This document shows positions 30,001-48,000 of a DNA stretch of 64,000 nt, piece by piece. This stretch comes from an uncultured Aliarcobacter sp. (lineage in GTDB: Bacteria; Campylobacterota; Campylobacteria; Campylobacterales; Arcobacteraceae): positions 832,001-896,000 of the forward strand of contig CAXXLV010000001.1 in the NCBI GenBank assembly GCA_963664305.2, read 5' to 3'. The first letter of the stretch is position 1. Each line of letters begins with the position of its first letter. Position numbers: made by a program.

Positions 30001-33000
30001 ATTATATTTTTATTGTCTAATTTATAGTGATAAAAGTTTTGAAAATAAAGAAGAACTTAGAAGAATTACTATTGAGTTAAAGAGATTGAGTGTGGAATCT
30101 AATATGGATATGGGAGACAGAGCAGAGGCTCTTTATCTAGCAAAGTGTGAGAATAAAGAAGAAGAATCATTAAGATTAATAAATGATGCAATTGCAAAAT
30201 ATCCAGATAGTTATTACCCGTTATTAACTAAATTTGATATTGCACTTAAATTTTATAATATAAATGAAATGGAAGATTGTATTTTAAAACTTGAAAAATT
30301 TAATGGTAAAACTTTATCTAAAAAAACATATACTAAACAAAAAGCATATTTTATTGCATTAAAAGAGAAAAATGCAACGAAAGCTAAACAGTTAATTATT
30401 GATGATTTAAATAAATATCCTCAGGAAGCAAAAGATTTGATTTTAGAAAAAATTGATTATTTAGCAAATAAATTAAAATAAAAATCTATAATTCAATTGG
30501 TGTCAAATTGGTGCCTTTAAATACCATTTATTAGCTTCATAAAATATAATTAATATTTTAGGAGTAATGACTAAATGGTATTTATTAGTTAAGAGTTCGA
30601 TTCCTATAAAATCCTACCAGGCGTGCCATTTTTAAATCTAACACAATCCAAGATAGTCTATAAAATCCCGATAAAATCAAGCTTCTTGTTAAATATTAAT
30701 CTAACTTATGCTAATGTAATCTAATTAAATATAGAAAAAATTAGGGCGTTTGTTAGGGCGTAAGCCAAAAATATTGAAATTATCAAAAATTTATGCCCAG
30801 ATATTTTAATAGAACATTGTAAATACAGAAGTTAAGAGGATATTCAAAAATCTTCAAACTATTTCTATTTATTTTTTTATTTATATTATTCTAAAAAATG
30901 AAAATTTATGAATATTTAATTATTAATTGTAATATTAGATTATTTAATTATTTTTGAATAAATAAGCATTCAAAAATGTATTTAAAAATAATTAGTTTTA
31001 AGTTTTTCTTTAGTGTATCTTGTGTTAGAATATATCCCAAGTTAGAAAAACTCTAATTCAAGGATAATATTTGCCATATCTTGTTTCATCAATAATTGCA
31101 ATTGTTTCAGCTTTAATAATTTTACTTACTAGATATGAAGCTGATGACAGTACAATAACAAGTGAACTTGATAGAATGAAATCTATGTTTATAACAATGG
31201 ATGGATTTGTAAATACTTATATTCAATCTGGTGGAACTTTATCAAGTATAAATTTTGAGGAATTGGATAAAGCGGGTATTTTATTATCAAATATGGAAAT
31301 AACTCCAGTAGCAGATACAAATTCTAGTACTGGTGAAAATAAAACTACAACAAAATTTCCAAATAGTGAAGTGATTTGGCAAATTATACCAAATATAAAT
31401 GACACTAGTTCATATAAACTTTTAGTAGATATGTCAAAAGCTAGTGCATTGATGAGTAAGGCTATTTTCTCAGAAAGTTTCTCAGGTCGAGAATTTTGTG
31501 AAAAGATGCTTTTTGGTACATTTGATCAAAATGGAAGTGCATATGTTGAGGGAACAAAAGATTTTGGAACAACAGGCACAACAAAAGACGGAATTTTTGT
31601 TTGTATAGTTTTTAAGTGATTTTTGGTGCAACTAAAATAATAGTTGTTGTATAATAGGGCGGTTGGTAGGTAAACTTAAATTTAATAAAGGGGAAAGAAA
31701 ATGCCACAGTTGATAGCTATGATTATCGTAGTAGTTGGAGCAATGATTTATATGTTCCAAACATTTGGAGGAACTGGAGATAAAATCGAAGGTATTGCAC
31801 AAAAAACAAGTATTATTACTGAAATTAATAATATAAAAGATGGGGTTAAAATCGCAGCTAAATCAGAGCAAATTGCAAGTACAGCATCAGGTGATAAAGT
31901 TAACACTTTAGAGGGATTAGCAGCTCTTTCATATTTTGCAGAACAAATTAATACACAATTAACTGATACAAATAATAATGCAAATAATGCAAATATATAT
32001 AATGCTATTTCATTTGGTGGTGGAGTTGTATCTGCTGCAACAAATACTAGTGATATGCAAATTTCTTTAGTAGCACCAGCTGCAGTTGGTACTGTAAAAA
32101 GAGTACCTGGAATATTTGTAGATTTTTCTAAAGGTGGTTTATCTTCAAATGCTGCATTTTTAGAATCACAAATAGCAAGTGATTTAGCTGCTGTAGCTTA
32201 CATAGATAGAACAGCAACAAGTGCTACAGCAAAAAGTGGAGTAATTAGTTCAACAGGTTCATCTATTGAACAACGAACACCTGCTATTGGTACTGTAGAT
32301 GCTGATGGGAAGCCTGTTGATCCTACAGCTGCTCAATTAGGTGATGGAATGTTCATTCTTTATTTTAAAGATTTTGGTTCAGACGAAGTAGTTCAATAAT
32401 ATTTAGGCTTTTGCCTAAATATTATATTTTAAAAAACAAAACCTAAGTGCTAAGTATTAGCATTTACTTTTTGTTTTACTCTTAAAAAAGGTTTTTTTCT
32501 AATGTTGGGAAATATATGGCTATCATCGGCACTTATTGTTACAGCTATATTTTCTGCAGGTGCTATGTATAAATCTTATAGTGATATTCAAGAAGCAAAA
32601 CAAATCCAAGAACATTATGAAATAATCTCTGAAATCAAAACTTTATTAGCCAAGCAATACAATAAAAATCCAGATGAAATAACACGTGATGATATTATTG
32701 CCAATTTACCAAAAGGTGAAAACTGGGGAAAAGTTCTTCTTCTTGATAGAAATAAAGATAGCAATCTTTCTAATAAAGAGTTAGTAAATGAAACTGGAAA
32801 TTTTGAGATAAGTGAAGATGAAAAGTTAAAATTACTTGCACTAAAAGCAAAACTAAAAGATGTTATTGATGTAACTTCAATTGAACCAGTTGATAAAAAA
32901 TATACTTTTGAAGTTGGGAAAGTTGAGAAAAATAGAGTATTAAATGATATTGATATTGAAGAAAATTTAACAAAAGCAATACATTTTTTGGCAGATGAAA

Positions 33001-45000: not shown

Positions 45001-48000
45001 GTTGATTTTTCTAAAAAAGTTTCAGAAATAGGAACAACAACTGCAAGTAATGGAATAGTTTGGATAAATAGTAAAAATGAATTAAAAGGTGATTATTATA
45101 CAGATGAAAATAAAAATGATCCAGTATTTAAAGATTCTATAAAAAAAATAAAATGGAAAAAAATAAAAGTTATACAAGATGATAATGGTATGTGTGGAAT
45201 TGATATAAATGATCAAATGTATTGTTGGGGAATGATGTCTTTTTATGGTCAAGATATGAGAGATACATTTATGTTACCAGTATTTAATACAAATTTATAT
45301 GATTCTAATAAGGATTTTTTAGTTGTTGAGGGAGGTAATTCAAATCTTACAAACATGACATCTGATGATTGGACAACTAGTGATTCAAAAAAACCATTTT
45401 TTATGAAGTATCCTACATATATAGGTGGATTTAATTATGAGTTTATATTTAAATAAAATTAAAAGGGAAAAAATGAAGAGAATAAGTATGATTTTATTGG
45501 GGTTTCTTACTGCAATTAATCTTTATGCAGAAGATCAAAATATACAAAATATGGATAAATTAGATGCTTTAGATCAGCAATCTAAAGAGTTCTTTAAAGC
45601 AATTACTGGATTAGAGAAAGATTATTTAGAGGAACAAGTAAATGCAATAAAAAATAAAAAAGTAGAGCAAATTTCAAATCCAAATATGCCAAATCAACCA
45701 CAAATGATTATAAAAGAAGAACCAAAATTATCACAAGAAGATTATGAAAAAAATGTATTTACTCATCAAAATGAAATGGCAAGATTAACTACAGATTTTA
45801 CTAGAACAAAAAAATTAAAAGATTTAAAAATAAAAAGTATGTACTCTTTTAATGGGAAAGATTATGTAGTACTAGAATTAAATGATGAAACAGCAGTAAA
45901 TAAACAAAATGGTTTAACAAAAACTGAGTTAAGTGCAAATATAGAAGGAAGATATGTTGAGGGTGATAATATCTTAGGACATAAAATCATTGATATTAAT
46001 ACAAGAACAAAAAGTGTTGAACTATATAAAAAACTTGATGAAGAGTATGGTTATACAATCTATTTAAGCAATTATGGTATTTCTGTTAGTGATTTAAAAA
46101 AGATAGAACAAAAAGAAGAAGCTAAAAAAGAAGATAAAAATAGTGTAAAAAAAGCATTTGAACAAGTTAAAACTGAACAAAAAAATGTAAGTGAAAAAAA
46201 CTCTTCTTGTTATATAGTTAATAAACAAAATTTAAATGTAAGAAATAGTACAAATTCAGACGCTAGAATTTTAAGAATTTTAAAACTTGATGATAAATTC
46301 ACTATAAAAGAAAAAAACAATGATTGGCTTCAAATAGATACTATTTATAAAAAAGTTTCAGGTGATGTAATGAATGTATCAAATGAAAATAACTGGGTTC
46401 AATTAGTAGAAGGAAATGTAAGTCTAAGTGATAATTGTAAATAGGAAAGTAAATTGGAAAATCTAAGAGATTATAAATCAGAAATTTTTGTAAATATTGA
46501 AAGAATTTCAAATGAAGTTCTCATATTAAAAAGTAAATATAATAAATTTTTTAATATAGAAGAGATATTTTCTAGTGAAAATGGTGGAAAAACAAGATTA
46601 AATAGACAAATATTTAATGAAAATCATGAGAATATCCAATCTTCAATTTTAGAGATAAGTTTATCTTTAGATGAAATTACAGGTCTAATAAAAGAGCAAA
46701 TGAGAATTGTTTTAAATAATAACAATCAATTTGAAAAAGCAGAATTAAATACATTGATTTTTGATGATAAAAATTTTTTAGAAATATTATCTTTAGATTT
46801 AGACACTCATGGCATAAAAGGTGAAGCTAAAAATAGATGTTTAAATGAGATAAAAGATTTAATCAATTTAAAAAATAAGGTGTTTAATCTACGATATTTT
46901 ATAGATATGTTTGATACTTCAATTTTTGATAAATATATAAATAGATTAGGAGTTGAAGATTTAATCAATAGTACAATTATTTTTGAAACTATAGACTCTT
47001 ACGCTTTACAGTTTGAAGAGTTGAAAAAATTTGCAGAACAATTAGCTACATTAAGTGTTGAAAATATAAAAGTTACAAATCTGAATAGTTTTAACACTTT
47101 ATTAGAATTACATAAAAGAAGAGTTGATAACTATATGTATGCAGGTATAAAATATAAAATATTTATTGAATACAATAGTGAAATAAATATAGTTAAGCCT
47201 GTTAATTTAAATATGGCATATTTAGAAAATATTTTATCTGCATTAATAGAACAATCATCAATGGATGTTGTAAAAAAAGAGTTAAAAAAAGGAAAAATAC
47301 AAAAGCAAATAGATGTAAATATTTCGCTAAATAAAAATATATTTCAAATGAGTGTAAAAAACAATGGTTTTGAAGTTAGAAATATTCACAATTTATTTTT
47401 ATCAGATATTGATAATAAAAATATTTTAGAAGCAAAAAATTTAGCTAGTTTTATAAATGCAAAACTTGATATTTCAAGTATTGACAATGAAGGTATGCAG
47501 TATACAGTAACTCTTAAAGTTTAAAACTAAAGGTAAAAAACCTTTAGTTATCTTTGAAATTTCCAATAATCTCTTTTGCTTTTTGTAAAGCTTTATCACT
47601 ACTATCTTTATCAAATGTAAGTGCCACAGCCATTCTTCTTCCCACATGACTTTGCGGTTTTCCAAATACTCTAATAATTGAATCTTTTGTAAATGAAGAA
47701 TCAAATATATCAATTTGTGGATTAAATGTATCTCCACTTGCTTTGTAAGCAGCACTTGCACCTGCTCCATAAGTTATAAAATCAACTGGTAAACCTAAAA
47801 CTGCTCTTACATGAAGTGCAAATTCACTAGCACTTTGAGTAATCATAGTAACCATTCCAGTATCATGTGGTCTTGGACTTACTTCTGAAAAATAAACATC
47901 GTCACCTTTTACAAAAAGTTCAACACCAAAAATACCTCTTCCACCAAGACCATCAGTAATTGTTTTTGCAATTTCTTGTGATTTTTTAACTGCAATTTCA

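What a model noticed while it worked through the whole genome (the two positions that open the first line are those of the whole stretch)
31071..47524. Leaderless type IVb-like pilus operon of Arcobacteraceae
A 14-gene operon (g00839-g00852) with no Pfam/PADLOC/PHROG family on 13 of its genes encodes a PilB/GspE-type ATPase, a one-domain GspF-like platform protein, a lipoprotein with a secretin-like beta-rich C-terminus, three small proteins with pilin-like N-terminal hydrophobic helices, two large RCC1-propeller proteins and a histidine-kinase-fold protein. I read it as a new, divergent type IVb-like pilus machine whose pilins are made WITHOUT a class-III leader peptide (they start Met-Pro directly at the hydrophobic helix, with stop codons 2-5 codons upstream) and without a prepilin peptidase in the operon; after Met removal the N-terminal proline (a secondary amine) could stand in for the N-me [...]
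Evidence so far: Tables: only g00847 has a Pfam row (T2SSE). PADLOC and PHROGs: no hit for the 13 others; Pfam at E<=0.05 gives only RCC1-like repeats in g00844 (950 aa) and g00850 (733 aa) and SH3_3 in g00851. g00846 (338 aa, 3 TM, call 22): 87 relatives, nearly all 'hypothetical', a few carry PF00482 T2SSF / 'GspF domain'. Model of g00840 with 13 orthologues (pLDDT 74.5, pTM 0.75; The first 28 residues MPQLIAM(I/V)I(V/I)(V/I)VGA(M/L)IYMFQTFGGTGDK are identical but for four conservative positions in 13 of 13 orthologues; in-frame stops lie 5 codons upstream of the g00840 ATG and 2 codons upstream of the [...]
(Added by a program. Inside this text positions count along the whole contig: contig position 832,001 is position 1 of the stretch shown here. 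"Call 12" and the like, gene names such as g00115 and contig names such as C1 are that model's own, and its searches are not shown. The text may have been shortened before it was handed on; [...] marks where a part breaks off. The agent that wrote the report below was given it as the finding of a first reader that could run no searches.)

Follow-up and report, generated by a model that had tools for sequence, protein, structure and literature searches.

The report
Pilus-type machine with leaderless subunit genes
A conserved gene cluster in Arcobacter-family bacteria encodes a type IV pilus-like machine whose only candidate filament subunits are made without the cleavable leader thought to be universal in such systems, so it may show that the leader-cutting step can be dispensed with.

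Summary
The 14-gene + strand operon at 31071-47524 is real. Orthologues of g840 occur in 40 of 184 genomes of the family. The machine reading is supported:
- a PilB/GspE ATPase;
- a lipoprotein secretin (sub-threshold MshL/PilN matches in 19 of 20 orthologues, and HMM links of E 4e-51 to secretins of canonical pilin clusters);
- a three-helix GspF-like platform.

The leaderless starts are robust. g840 begins Met-Pro at the hydrophobic helix in 43 of 43 aligned homologues, with in-frame stops 1-18 codons upstream in 30 of 30 loci. No homologue with a leader turned up among 1.84 billion representatives.

New findings here:
- g839 and g840 are probable paralogues.
- g840 has a strongly conserved head and a fast-evolving body.
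- Three gene orders exist, including a minimal 9-gene form without g841-g844 and g850.
- Related clusters with ordinary leader-bearing pilins exist.

Verdict: a new variant of a type IV filament machine. Confidence that g839 and g840 are its polymerising subunits is about 0.6.

The parts
31071..31619 (+). g839, 182 aa. Leaderless helix protein and probable minor subunit; paralogue of g840.
   Evidence: The start is TTG CCA, with a stop two codons upstream. In 20 of 20 loci the protein starts M[P/A/G]Y, and the first charged residue is at position 21. A C-terminal Cys pair about 35 residues apart is present in 20 of 20. hhalign against g840 gives probability 74.6%, E 2.7e-5, over 142 columns. 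It is present in all three operon forms.
31701..32399 (+). g840, 232 aa. Leaderless helix protein and probable major subunit.
   Evidence: MPQLIAM start in 30 of 30 loci, with stops 1-18 codons upstream. Met1 and Pro2 are invariant in 43 of 43 aligned homologues. The first 46 residues are 91% identical pairwise, against 46% for the rest. pN/pS is 0.10 for codons 2-46 and 0.69 for the rest, at equal pS. The profile found 41 hits among 1.84 billion representatives; the hits that include the N-terminus align residue 1 to residue 1, 5 are C-terminal pieces and 2 are weak matches inside much longer proteins.
31650..31655 (+). TATAAT box about 45 nt upstream of the g840 start; a possible promoter of its own.
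   Evidence: Read in the sequence. A TATAAT at a similar distance is seen in several other loci, for example L039, L042, L044, L052 and L055. This is a consensus match only.
32400..32476 (+). Two stable hairpins directly after the g840 stop; terminator- or attenuator-like.
   Evidence: Fold of 32390-32505: z-score -5.66, and 0 of 200 shuffles fold as well. 18 of 20 loci have significantly stable folds (z -2.4 to -9.4), mostly one or two hairpins just after the g840 stop, with different stem sequences. The simple terminator scan reported none.
32502..33236 (+). g841, 244 aa. Third protein with an uncharged N-terminal helix; accessory.
   Evidence: Starts M[L/F/V/Y][G/S]NI[W/F] in most of the 20 aligned orthologues, with no leader. 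No detectable homology to g839 or g840. Absent from the minimal form. No family or PDB match.
33233..34719 (+). g842 (33233-33958) and g843 (33955-34719). Sec-exported paralogues sharing an N-terminal domain with g844 and g850; accessory.
   Evidence: The family HMMs cross-hit (E 1e-25) and also hit g844 and g850. The signal peptides carry K/R. A Cys pair 8-13 residues apart is present in 20 of 20. Absent from the minimal form.
34720..37641 (+). g844, RCC1-repeat protein (951 aa from the TTG at 34786). The likely true start is the ATC at 34720, which would add a Sec signal peptide.
   Evidence: RCC1 and RCC1_2 matches are just above their cut-offs. The signal peptide IKTLIF..FA|SS is encoded in frame right after the g843 stop. 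The codon there is ATC or ATT in 8 of 20 loci and ATG in the others. C-terminal motif KYPTYIGGFDYxFYFK.
37650..39311 (+). g845, 553 aa. Lipoprotein secretin.
   Evidence: Lipobox LLGGC at 37698-37712. MshL matches in 19 of 20 orthologues (best E 2.9e-14) and PilN type IVb matches in 12 of 20 (best E 8.9e-10), all below cut-off. The family HMM hits the lipoprotein secretins next to leader-bearing pilins: L066 at 3.9e-51, L065 at 1.7e-38, L130 at 2.1e-47. Pfam Secretin does not match it.
39314..40330 (+). g846, 338 aa. Platform protein, GspF/PilC-like.
   Evidence: PF00482 matches in 19 of 19 orthologues at E<=1, best 4.1e-4, below cut-off. Three hydrophobic helices at about 110-128, 159-177 and 305-328. 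The HMM hits the platform genes of canonical clusters at 1.3e-17, 2.1e-11 and 7e-13. It is the most conserved protein of the operon, 72-98% identity.
40342..42033 (+). g847, 563 aa. PilB/GspE-type assembly ATPase.
   Evidence: T2SSE E 8.2e-66. TfpB, GspE and PilB models match equally, at about 1e-57 to 1e-58. Walker A at 41356-41379 and a four-cysteine motif at 41776-41838. No T2SSE_N match in the first 200 residues of 6 orthologues.
42021..43258 (+). g848 (42021-42770; soluble domain, then one membrane helix) and g849 (42767-43258; membrane helix, coiled coil, then a small domain). Probable inner-membrane alignment proteins.
   Evidence: Architecture read from the sequence. Present in all three operon forms. 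Weak DivIC-type matches for g849 in 6 of 9 orthologues. No PDB match. The function is inferred from position and architecture only.
43255..45456 (+). g850, 733 aa. Sec-exported RCC1-like propeller protein; accessory.
   Evidence: WD40_RLD E 3.9e-8, below cut-off. The matching proteins in G078 match RCC1 models at 1e-49 and 4e-37. Shares its N-terminal domain and C-terminal motif with g844. Absent from the minimal form.
45425..47524 (+). g851 (45425-46444; Sec signal, weak SH3_3 at the C-terminus) and g852 (46454-47524; no family).
   Evidence: SH3_3 E 1.4e-4, below cut-off. g852 has no Pfam match in 8 orthologues and no PDB match. Only short N-terminal versions (153-173 aa and 119-123 aa) are kept in the minimal form.

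Best explanation
The operon encodes a chromosomal type IV filament machine of the Arcobacteraceae. It is distantly related to type IVb/MSH-type pili. Its filament subunits are made in mature form.

Shown:
- The cluster holds a PilB/GspE ATPase, a GspF-like three-helix platform and a lipoprotein secretin.
- Two bitopic partners (g848, g849) and two paralogous proteins (g839, g840) always travel with them.
- g839 and g840 start, at residue 2, with a 20-26-residue uncharged hydrophobic helix.

Inferred:
- g840 is the major subunit and g839 a minor one.
- They insert N-in/C-out without a positively charged leader. The ATPase-platform motor extracts them from the membrane, polymerises them through the strongly conserved N-terminal helix, and the filament leaves through the secretin.
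- No prepilin peptidase cut is needed because there is nothing to cut.
- The free N-terminus of g840 is either Pro1 after methionine removal (a secondary amine, like an N-methylated residue) or a retained formyl-Met. Either would go with the absence of Glu5.
- g841, g842, g843 and the two RCC1 propeller proteins are lineage-specific add-ons, most likely Sec-exported tip or adhesin proteins.
For: Machine:
- ATPase T2SSE E 8.2e-66.
- Secretin: MshL or PilN matches in 19 and 12 of 20 orthologues, a lipobox, and HMM E 3.9e-51, 1.7e-38 and 2.1e-47 to secretins that sit beside ordinary leader-bearing pilins.
- Platform: T2SSF matches in 19 of 19, all weak, three membrane helices, and HMM links of 1e-11 to 1e-17 to platforms of those clusters.

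Leaderless starts:
- 30 of 30 g840 loci and 20 of 20 g839 loci.
- The hits of a 1.84-billion-protein profile search that include the N-terminus start at residue 1.
- M1 and P2 are invariant in 43 of 43.
- No charged residue before position 21 (g839) or 27 (g840) in 20 of 20, while every Sec signal peptide of the operon except some g851 orthologues has K/R.

Subunit-like behaviour:
- Identity is 91% for the first 46 residues against 46% for the rest.
- pN/pS is 0.10 against 0.69 at equal pS of about 0.5.
- Stable hairpin folds follow g840 in 18 of 20 loci.
- g839 and g840 are paralogues (E 2.7e-5).
- g839 has a conserved C-terminal Cys pair in 20 of 20.

Linkage:
- g840 and the platform co-occur in 38 genomes. 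The 3 discordant genomes are 65-94% complete, and 143 genomes have neither.
- g839, g840 and the machine stay together in three different gene orders.
- In the minimal 9-gene form g839 and g840 are the only candidates for a subunit.
Against: - No sequence method links g839, g840 or g841 to any pilin. PF07963 does not match. Profile searches of PDB sequences gave 0 hits or noise. hhalign against five leader-bearing pilins of the related clusters gave E 0.35 and 0.098.
- There is no Glu5 or other charge in the helix.
- Every one of the 39 other genomes with the operon has a Peptidase_A24 gene. The window's genome has ordinary pilin genes elsewhere, so pilins supplied in trans are not excluded.
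- g840 has no cysteine in any of 20 orthologues.
- The ATPase does not group with the ATPases of the canonical clusters.
- No filament has been seen.
Confidence: 0.6

Rival explanations
1. Same machine and same leaderless subunits, but the subunits form only a short periplasmic pseudopilus. That pseudopilus pushes Sec-exported cargo (the RCC1 propeller proteins, g842, g843) through the secretin, as in type II secretion.
For: Four operon proteins have Sec signal peptides and share one N-terminal domain that could serve as a recognition module. The ATPase has the four-cysteine motif and matches GspE as well as it matches PilB. There is only one ATPase and no retraction ATPase in the operon.
Against: The minimal form in two genera keeps g839, g840 and the machine but has none of the four candidate cargo proteins, so exporting them cannot be the core function. 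The fast-evolving body of g840 (pN/pS 0.69) and the hairpins after the gene fit an abundant exposed subunit better than a hidden pseudopilus. No GspC, GspL or GspM family match was found.
Confidence: 0.17
2. g839, g840 and g841 are not subunits. They are bitopic inner-membrane assembly or alignment proteins. The machine polymerises ordinary leader-bearing pilins encoded elsewhere and cut by one of the genome's A24 peptidases.
For: No sequence similarity to pilins, no leader and no Glu5. Peptidase_A24 is present in 39 of 39 other genomes with the operon. Ordinary small pilin genes are present in the window's genome. MSH loci likewise rely on a peptidase in trans (Denise 2019, passages).
Against: The related canonical clusters all carry their own pilin genes inside the cluster, whereas this operon would then carry none. 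The near-invariant 46-residue head with a fast-evolving body is unusual for an alignment protein. g848 and g849 already fill that architectural role. The ordinary pilins of the genome lie beside or near other machines, a Cts/T2SS-like set and a Tad-like locus. The operon HMMs find no further paralogue in the genome.
Confidence: 0.15
3. The N-terminal hydrophobic stretch of g840 (and of g841) is an unusual Sec signal peptide cut by signal peptidase I, for example after TFG in QTFG|GTGDK. The mature proteins would then be soluble periplasmic or secreted proteins.
For: Small residues stand at -1 and -3 after the hydrophobic stretch of g840 (T-F-G) and of g841 (A-G-A). This is a reading of the sequence, not a prediction tool.
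Against: No K/R lies before the hydrophobic stretch in any of 20 orthologues of g839 or g840, unlike the operon's true signal peptides. Signal peptides are not normally kept invariant across genera while the mature part diverges to 46%. g839, the paralogue, has no such site (TRYEADDS follows its helix).
Confidence: 0.05

Closest known systems
Type IVb pili (R64 thin pilus, TCP, BFP, CFA/III-Longus)
   Same: All genes lie in one cluster. The secretin is a lipoprotein (lipobox) and matches the PilN type IVb secretin family in 12 of 20 orthologues. There is a single assembly ATPase and a platform of about 340 aa. The nearest relatives of the secretin and platform lie in uncharacterised Campylobacterota clusters with ordinary leader-bearing pilins. 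One cluster of that kind lies on a Caminibacter pacificus plasmid beside an 'ATP-binding protein' gene, and everything in it except its T2SS/T4P-family ATPase is annotated hypothetical.
   Different: The subunit candidates have no leader at all, whereas long leaders are the classical mark of type IVb pilins (Pelicic 2023, passages). There is no Gly/Ala cleavage site, no Glu5 and no peptidase gene in the cluster. The gene order differs, and the ATPase does not group with those of the canonical clusters.
MSH (mannose-sensitive haemagglutinin) pilus
   Same: The best named match of the secretin is MshL (19 of 20 orthologues, best E 2.9e-14). The locus has no prepilin peptidase gene, as stated for all MSH loci, and MSH-like systems were reported in Epsilon-proteobacteria (Denise 2019, PMC6668835, passages).
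   Different: MSH pilins have ordinary leaders and use a peptidase in trans. No N-terminal T2SSE_N-type domain was found in the ATPase. All scores are far below the MshL cut-off (44.8 against 250 bits). That MSH operons carry many more named components is recalled, not tested.
Type II secretion system
   Same: A GspE-like ATPase with a four-cysteine motif, a GspF-like platform, an outer-membrane secretin, and Sec-exported proteins encoded alongside.
   Different: Pfam Secretin does not match g845. No GspC, GspL or GspM matches were found. The pseudopilin candidates lack the class III signal peptide. The minimal form has no candidate cargo.
PilY1-type tip adhesins of type IVa pili (recalled, not tested)
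   Same: A large beta-propeller protein encoded among the pilus genes. Here these are the RCC1-repeat proteins g844 and g850.
   Different: No sequence link was found: phmmer of g850 against PDB sequences gave 0 hits. The propeller type is RCC1, and the proteins are absent from the minimal form.

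Membership tests
Type IV filament (T4F/TFF) superfamily | Extension ATPase of the PilB/GspE family | tested here: met
   T2SSE E 8.2e-66, 222.6 bits against a cut-off of 24.9. Walker A and a Cys4 motif are present.
Type IV filament (T4F/TFF) superfamily | Polytopic platform protein (PilC/GspF, PF00482) | tested here: inconclusive
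   PF00482 matches 19 of 19 orthologues, but only at E 4e-4 to 1, below the cut-off. Three membrane helices with two cytoplasmic stretches. HMM links to platform genes of clusters with ordinary pilins. No PDB or internal-repeat signal.
Type IV filament (T4F/TFF) superfamily | Pilins with a class III signal peptide: a hydrophilic leader ending in Gly/Ala, then a hydrophobic helix, often with Glu5 (Pelicic 2023, passages) | tested here: not met
   No leader is possible: stops lie 0-25 codons upstream and the upstream residues are not conserved. There is no N_methyl match and no charge before residue 21 or 27. The hydrophobic helix itself is present.
Type IV filament (T4F/TFF) superfamily | Prepilin peptidase (Peptidase_A24) | tested here: not met
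   None in the operon. Two lie elsewhere in the genome, and at least one in each of the 39 other genomes with the operon. Whether the system uses one is unknown.
Type IV pilin fold | A long N-terminal helix packed on a beta-sheet head | not testable with these tools
Type IVb pilus | Lipoprotein secretin of the PilN/BfpB/TcpC kind | tested here: inconclusive
   A lipobox is present. TIGR02520 matches 12 of 20 orthologues, best E 8.9e-10, far below the cut-off.
Type IVb pilus | Major pilin with a long leader, and a peptidase gene in the cluster | tested here: not met
MSH pilus | MshL secretin (TIGR02519) | tested here: inconclusive
   19 of 20 orthologues match, best E 2.9e-14. The window protein scores 44.8 bits against a cut-off of 250.2.
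Secretin (PF00263) | Match to the Pfam secretin domain | tested here: not met
   No match at E<=1. The genome-wide scan finds three other secretin genes but not g845.
RCC1-repeat propeller | RCC1 repeats (PF00415, PF13540) | tested here: met
   g844: 25.9 and 25.6 bits against cut-offs of 21.7 and 22. g850 only matches below cut-off, but the matching proteins in G078 match at 1e-41 to 1e-49.

The most novel reading that the evidence does not exclude
This is the first type IV filament whose pilins are born mature. They have no class III leader, no prepilin-peptidase cut, no enzymatic N-methylation and no Glu5. The invariant Pro2 of the major subunit (Pro1 after methionine removal, a natural secondary amine) or a retained formyl-Met takes the place of the N-methylated residue. 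The invariant GGTG at residues 23-26 supplies, ready-made, the unfolded stretch that ordinary pilins acquire on assembly. The 'four core proteins' of type IV filaments would then shrink to three.
Probability: 0.4. Interest if true: 0.88.

Novelty: new variant of a known kind. Interest (0 to 1): 0.72.

Why it matters
The 2023 review by Pelicic (PMC10191384, passages read) states that pilin, prepilin peptidase, extension ATPase and platform are found in every type IV filament system. It also states that prepilins are defined by the class III signal peptide, and that the role of N-methylation remains a mystery.

A natural machine that assembles leaderless subunits would give direct tests of three questions:
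- what the leader and the peptidase are actually for (topology, timing or quality control);
- whether the charge pair of N-terminal amine and Glu5 is needed for assembly;
- how a subunit without a positively charged leader reaches the right membrane orientation.

The minimal 9-gene form is small enough to move into a laboratory host.

The finding also shows that motif-based pilin finders would miss such systems, because they look for a leader, Gly/Ala at -1 and Glu5. Here 13 of 14 proteins are listed as hypothetical or have no family.

Tried and rejected
- Complex prediction for three copies of g840 was unavailable.

Searches that found no link:
- The protein Atlas held no model for g840 or P0001. 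By features it returned only the family's own clusters, plus a lead at score 0.90 to a cluster in which 23% of members carry PF07419 PilM.
- Profiles against PDB sequences gave nothing or noise: g840, g845 (27), g846 (28), the shared N-domain (78), g839 (92), g852 (112), g848 (113), g850 (124), g849 (128).
- hhalign of g840 and g839 against leader-bearing pilins of related clusters was not significant. One weak C-terminal match (IFVD...DGKF, E 0.0016, probability 16%) appeared with the L065 pilin.
- The L065 pilin has no relatives in the 5.8-billion-protein set. The L066 pilin has only two full-length relatives in the family.

My own idea, not supported: that the N-domain shared by g842, g843, g844 and g850 is a pseudopilin head without its membrane helix. 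It aligns in register with the helix of local pilins, but only at E 0.03-0.13. It has no PDB hit and no relatives with an N_methyl motif.

Other tests that led nowhere:
- hhalign of the operon families against the unnamed genes of the canonical clusters gave nothing below E 7e-4.
- The test for an internal repeat in the platform gave E 0.17.
- A hydrophobic-moment scan for helix and strand periodicity was uninformative.
- The simple terminator scan found 0 sites, although folding shows strong hairpins.

RNA libraries: contigs that cover g840 were found in 4 runs from 4 studies, wastewater and compost, of which only X6 is on record as RNA. Contigs cannot rank genes or show ends, so this shows only that near-identical sequence is present in those libraries.

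Parts of the stretch without cover in those runs are not evidence.

Literature searches for this system found nothing relevant.

Full report
**Observation**

The window holds 14 co-directional ORFs from 31071 to 47524, with gaps of at most about 100 bases or small overlaps.
- The only strong Pfam match is T2SSE in g847 (E 8.2e-66).
- g844 has RCC1 repeats just above their cut-offs.
- g850, g851 and g846 give only sub-threshold matches: WD40_RLD, SH3_3 and T2SSF at E 0.14.
- PHROGs and PADLOC match the ATPase only.

**Leaderless starts**

Read from the DNA, g840 starts ATG CCA at 31701. The site AAGGGG lies upstream and a TAA five codons upstream. g839 starts TTG CCA at 31071, with AAGGA upstream and a TAA two codons upstream.

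Homologues of g840 occur in 40 of 184 genomes of the family, in 10 of 22 genera. In 30 of 30 loci read:
- the gene starts ATG-CCN with MPQLIAM;
- a Shine-Dalgarno site precedes it;
- an in-frame stop lies 1-18 codons upstream;
- the residues upstream are not conserved.

A profile of 20 orthologues, scored against 1.84 billion representative proteins, found only 41 hits. The hits that include the N-terminus align residue 1 to residue 1; 5 are C-terminal pieces and 2 are weak matches inside much longer proteins. The 12 sequences I read all begin MP. In a 43-sequence alignment Met1 and Pro2 are invariant.

g839 starts M[P/A/G]Y in 20 of 20 loci, with stops 0-25 codons upstream. g841 also begins at its hydrophobic stretch.

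No charged residue precedes position 21 (g839) or 27 (g840) in any of 20 orthologues. The following 15 residues are net negative. Apart from some g851 orthologues, the Sec signal peptides of the same operon always carry Lys or Arg. The starts are therefore real and form a class of their own.

**The machine**

Secretin:
- 19 of 20 orthologues match MshL (best E 2.9e-14) and 12 of 20 match PilN (best E 8.9e-10).
- A lipobox LLGGC is present.
- The family HMM hits, at 3.9e-51, 1.7e-38 and 2.1e-47, the lipoprotein secretins of three clusters in other Campylobacterota genomes.

Those clusters have the order secretin, pilin, unknown gene, platform, two bitopic genes, ATPase; L066 and L130 add a minor pilin after the ATPase. 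Their pilins have ordinary leaders..KKG|ITLIEI..KKG|FSLVELV and ..RKA|ISMVEV.

Platform:
- It matches PF00482 weakly in 19 of 19 orthologues.
- It has three hydrophobic helices separating two cytoplasmic stretches, the PilC/GspF layout.
- It links to the platforms of those clusters at 1e-11 to 1e-17.
- I therefore doubt the 'one-domain' description, but could not show an internal repeat (E 0.17).

ATPase:
- It scores alike against the TfpB, GspE and PilB models.
- In a tree, the 19 ATPases of this system form one clade and the three of the canonical clusters another. The deep branches are long and unresolved.

**Are g839 and g840 the subunits?**

For:
- The first 46 residues of g840 are 91% identical pairwise, the rest 46%.
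- pN/pS is 0.10 against 0.69, at the same synonymous divergence of about 0.5. The head is under strong purifying selection and the body evolves fast, as expected of an exposed major subunit with a buried assembly helix.
- Stable hairpin folds follow the gene in 18 of 20 loci, mostly one or two hairpins right after the stop, with different stem sequences.
- g839 is a paralogue of g840 (probability 74.6%, E 2.7e-5). It has a C-terminal cysteine pair about 35 residues apart in 20 of 20 orthologues. That a disulfide-bonded C-terminal loop is a known mark of many pilins is recalled, not tested.
- g840 and the platform co-occur. 38 genomes have both and 143 have neither. The three discordant genomes are 65-94% complete.
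- The link survives three gene orders: the 14-gene form (19 of 20 loci), a form with the machine first in G078, and a minimal 9-gene form in two genera. The minimal form is g839, g840, secretin, platform, ATPase, g848, g849 and short versions of g851 and g852. In it g839 and g840 are the only possible subunits.

Against:
- No sequence method connects these proteins to pilins.
- There is no Glu5.
- I could not fold them.
- A Peptidase_A24 gene exists in all 39 other genomes with the operon, and ordinary pilin genes exist elsewhere in the genome. Pilins supplied in trans cannot be excluded.

**Accessory parts**

- g842, g843, g844 and g850 share a Sec-exported N-terminal domain.
- g844 and g850 carry RCC1-type propellers and a common C-terminal motif.
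- All four, and g841, are absent from the minimal form. This argues against a type II-like machine whose purpose is to export them.
- The histidine-kinase fold of g852 found no sequence support.

**Comparison with what is known**

Record titles and source names place the system in Aliarcobacter, Arcobacter and Poseidonibacter. Among the named species are A. vandammei, A. defluvii, A. ellisii, A. venerupis and P. lekithochrous. Everything is annotated hypothetical. In a sample of 401 genomes of the phylum, the platform family matched only 9.

From the 2023 review by Pelicic I read passages. They name four core proteins for every type IV filament and define prepilins by the class III signal peptide. 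From Denise et al. 2019 I read passages. They state that all MSH loci lack a peptidase gene and that MSH-like systems occur in Epsilon-proteobacteria. Four full-text searches found nothing on this system or on leaderless pilins.

**Verdict**

The operon is a real, conserved, uncharacterised relative of type IVb/MSH machines. The leaderless nature of its candidate subunits is solid. That they polymerise is the best reading (about 0.6), but it rests on context, conservation pattern and elimination, not on a tested fold.

Noticed in passing
window 34717-34790; L039, L043, L044, L050, L052, L053, L055: g844 seems to start at a non-canonical codon. ATC (window and 6 other loci) or ATT (L039) directly follows the g843 TAA stop and opens a Sec signal peptide (IKTLIF...FA|SS). 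The other 12 loci have ATG there. The site AAAGGTGGA lies at 34707-34715.
   Followed up: partly
window 22800-30500: Just upstream of the operon lie a TIR-domain protein (28016-30481), a phage GPA-type replication protein (26576-27754, - strand) and an FtsK-like protein (25023-26312, - strand). This looks like an inserted mobile or defence island. The TIR gene has no counterpart in the 20 other loci fetched, whereas purT downstream (47544-48713) is kept in 11 of them.
   Followed up: partly
L131 (G073:C9) and L132 (G121:C154): A minimal 9-gene form of the system, without g841-g844 and g850 and with short g851- and g852-like genes. g840 is followed within 6-10 bases by the secretin gene, with no hairpin between them.
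   Followed up: yes
L066 (G067:C2), L065 (G226:C6), L130 (G078:C98); plasmid NZ_CP040940.1: An uncharacterised kind of type IVb-like cluster with ordinary leader-bearing pilins. The order is secretin, pilin, unknown gene, platform, two bitopic genes, ATPase; L066 and L130 add a minor pilin. One such cluster lies on a Caminibacter pacificus plasmid and, apart from its T2SS/T4P-family ATPase, is annotated hypothetical. G078 carries one of these as well as the leaderless system.
   Followed up: partly
G015:C1:755286-757618: The platform gene of this genome is split into two pieces about 1.3 kb apart. This is probably an insertion, so the system may be inactive there.
   Followed up: no
window 31590-31616, 32345-32375, 37590-37638, 45405-45453: A shared C-terminal strand motif ends in F-K: g839 has DGxFVCIVFK, g840 has DGKFIIYFKDF, and g844 and g850 have KYPTYIGGF[D/N]YxFxFK. 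Leader-bearing pilins of related clusters end in similar [S/T/D]DG-hydrophobic strands. Its meaning is unknown.
   Followed up: no
G000 C1:472-484 kb; C2:50-53 kb; C2:1222974, 1320000-1320654: The same genome has a Tad-like locus (two single-domain T2SSF genes, an ATPase, a secretin and a short A24 peptidase) and a second PilB-like ATPase with a two-domain platform. It also has small pilin genes whose leaders end in Ala or Ser (MKTA|FSLLELIF).
   Followed up: partly
window 31600-32441: Contigs 90-99% identical to g840 are present in wastewater and compost libraries labelled RNA-Seq or metatranscriptomic: 4 runs from 4 studies, of which only one is on record as RNA.
   Followed up: partly
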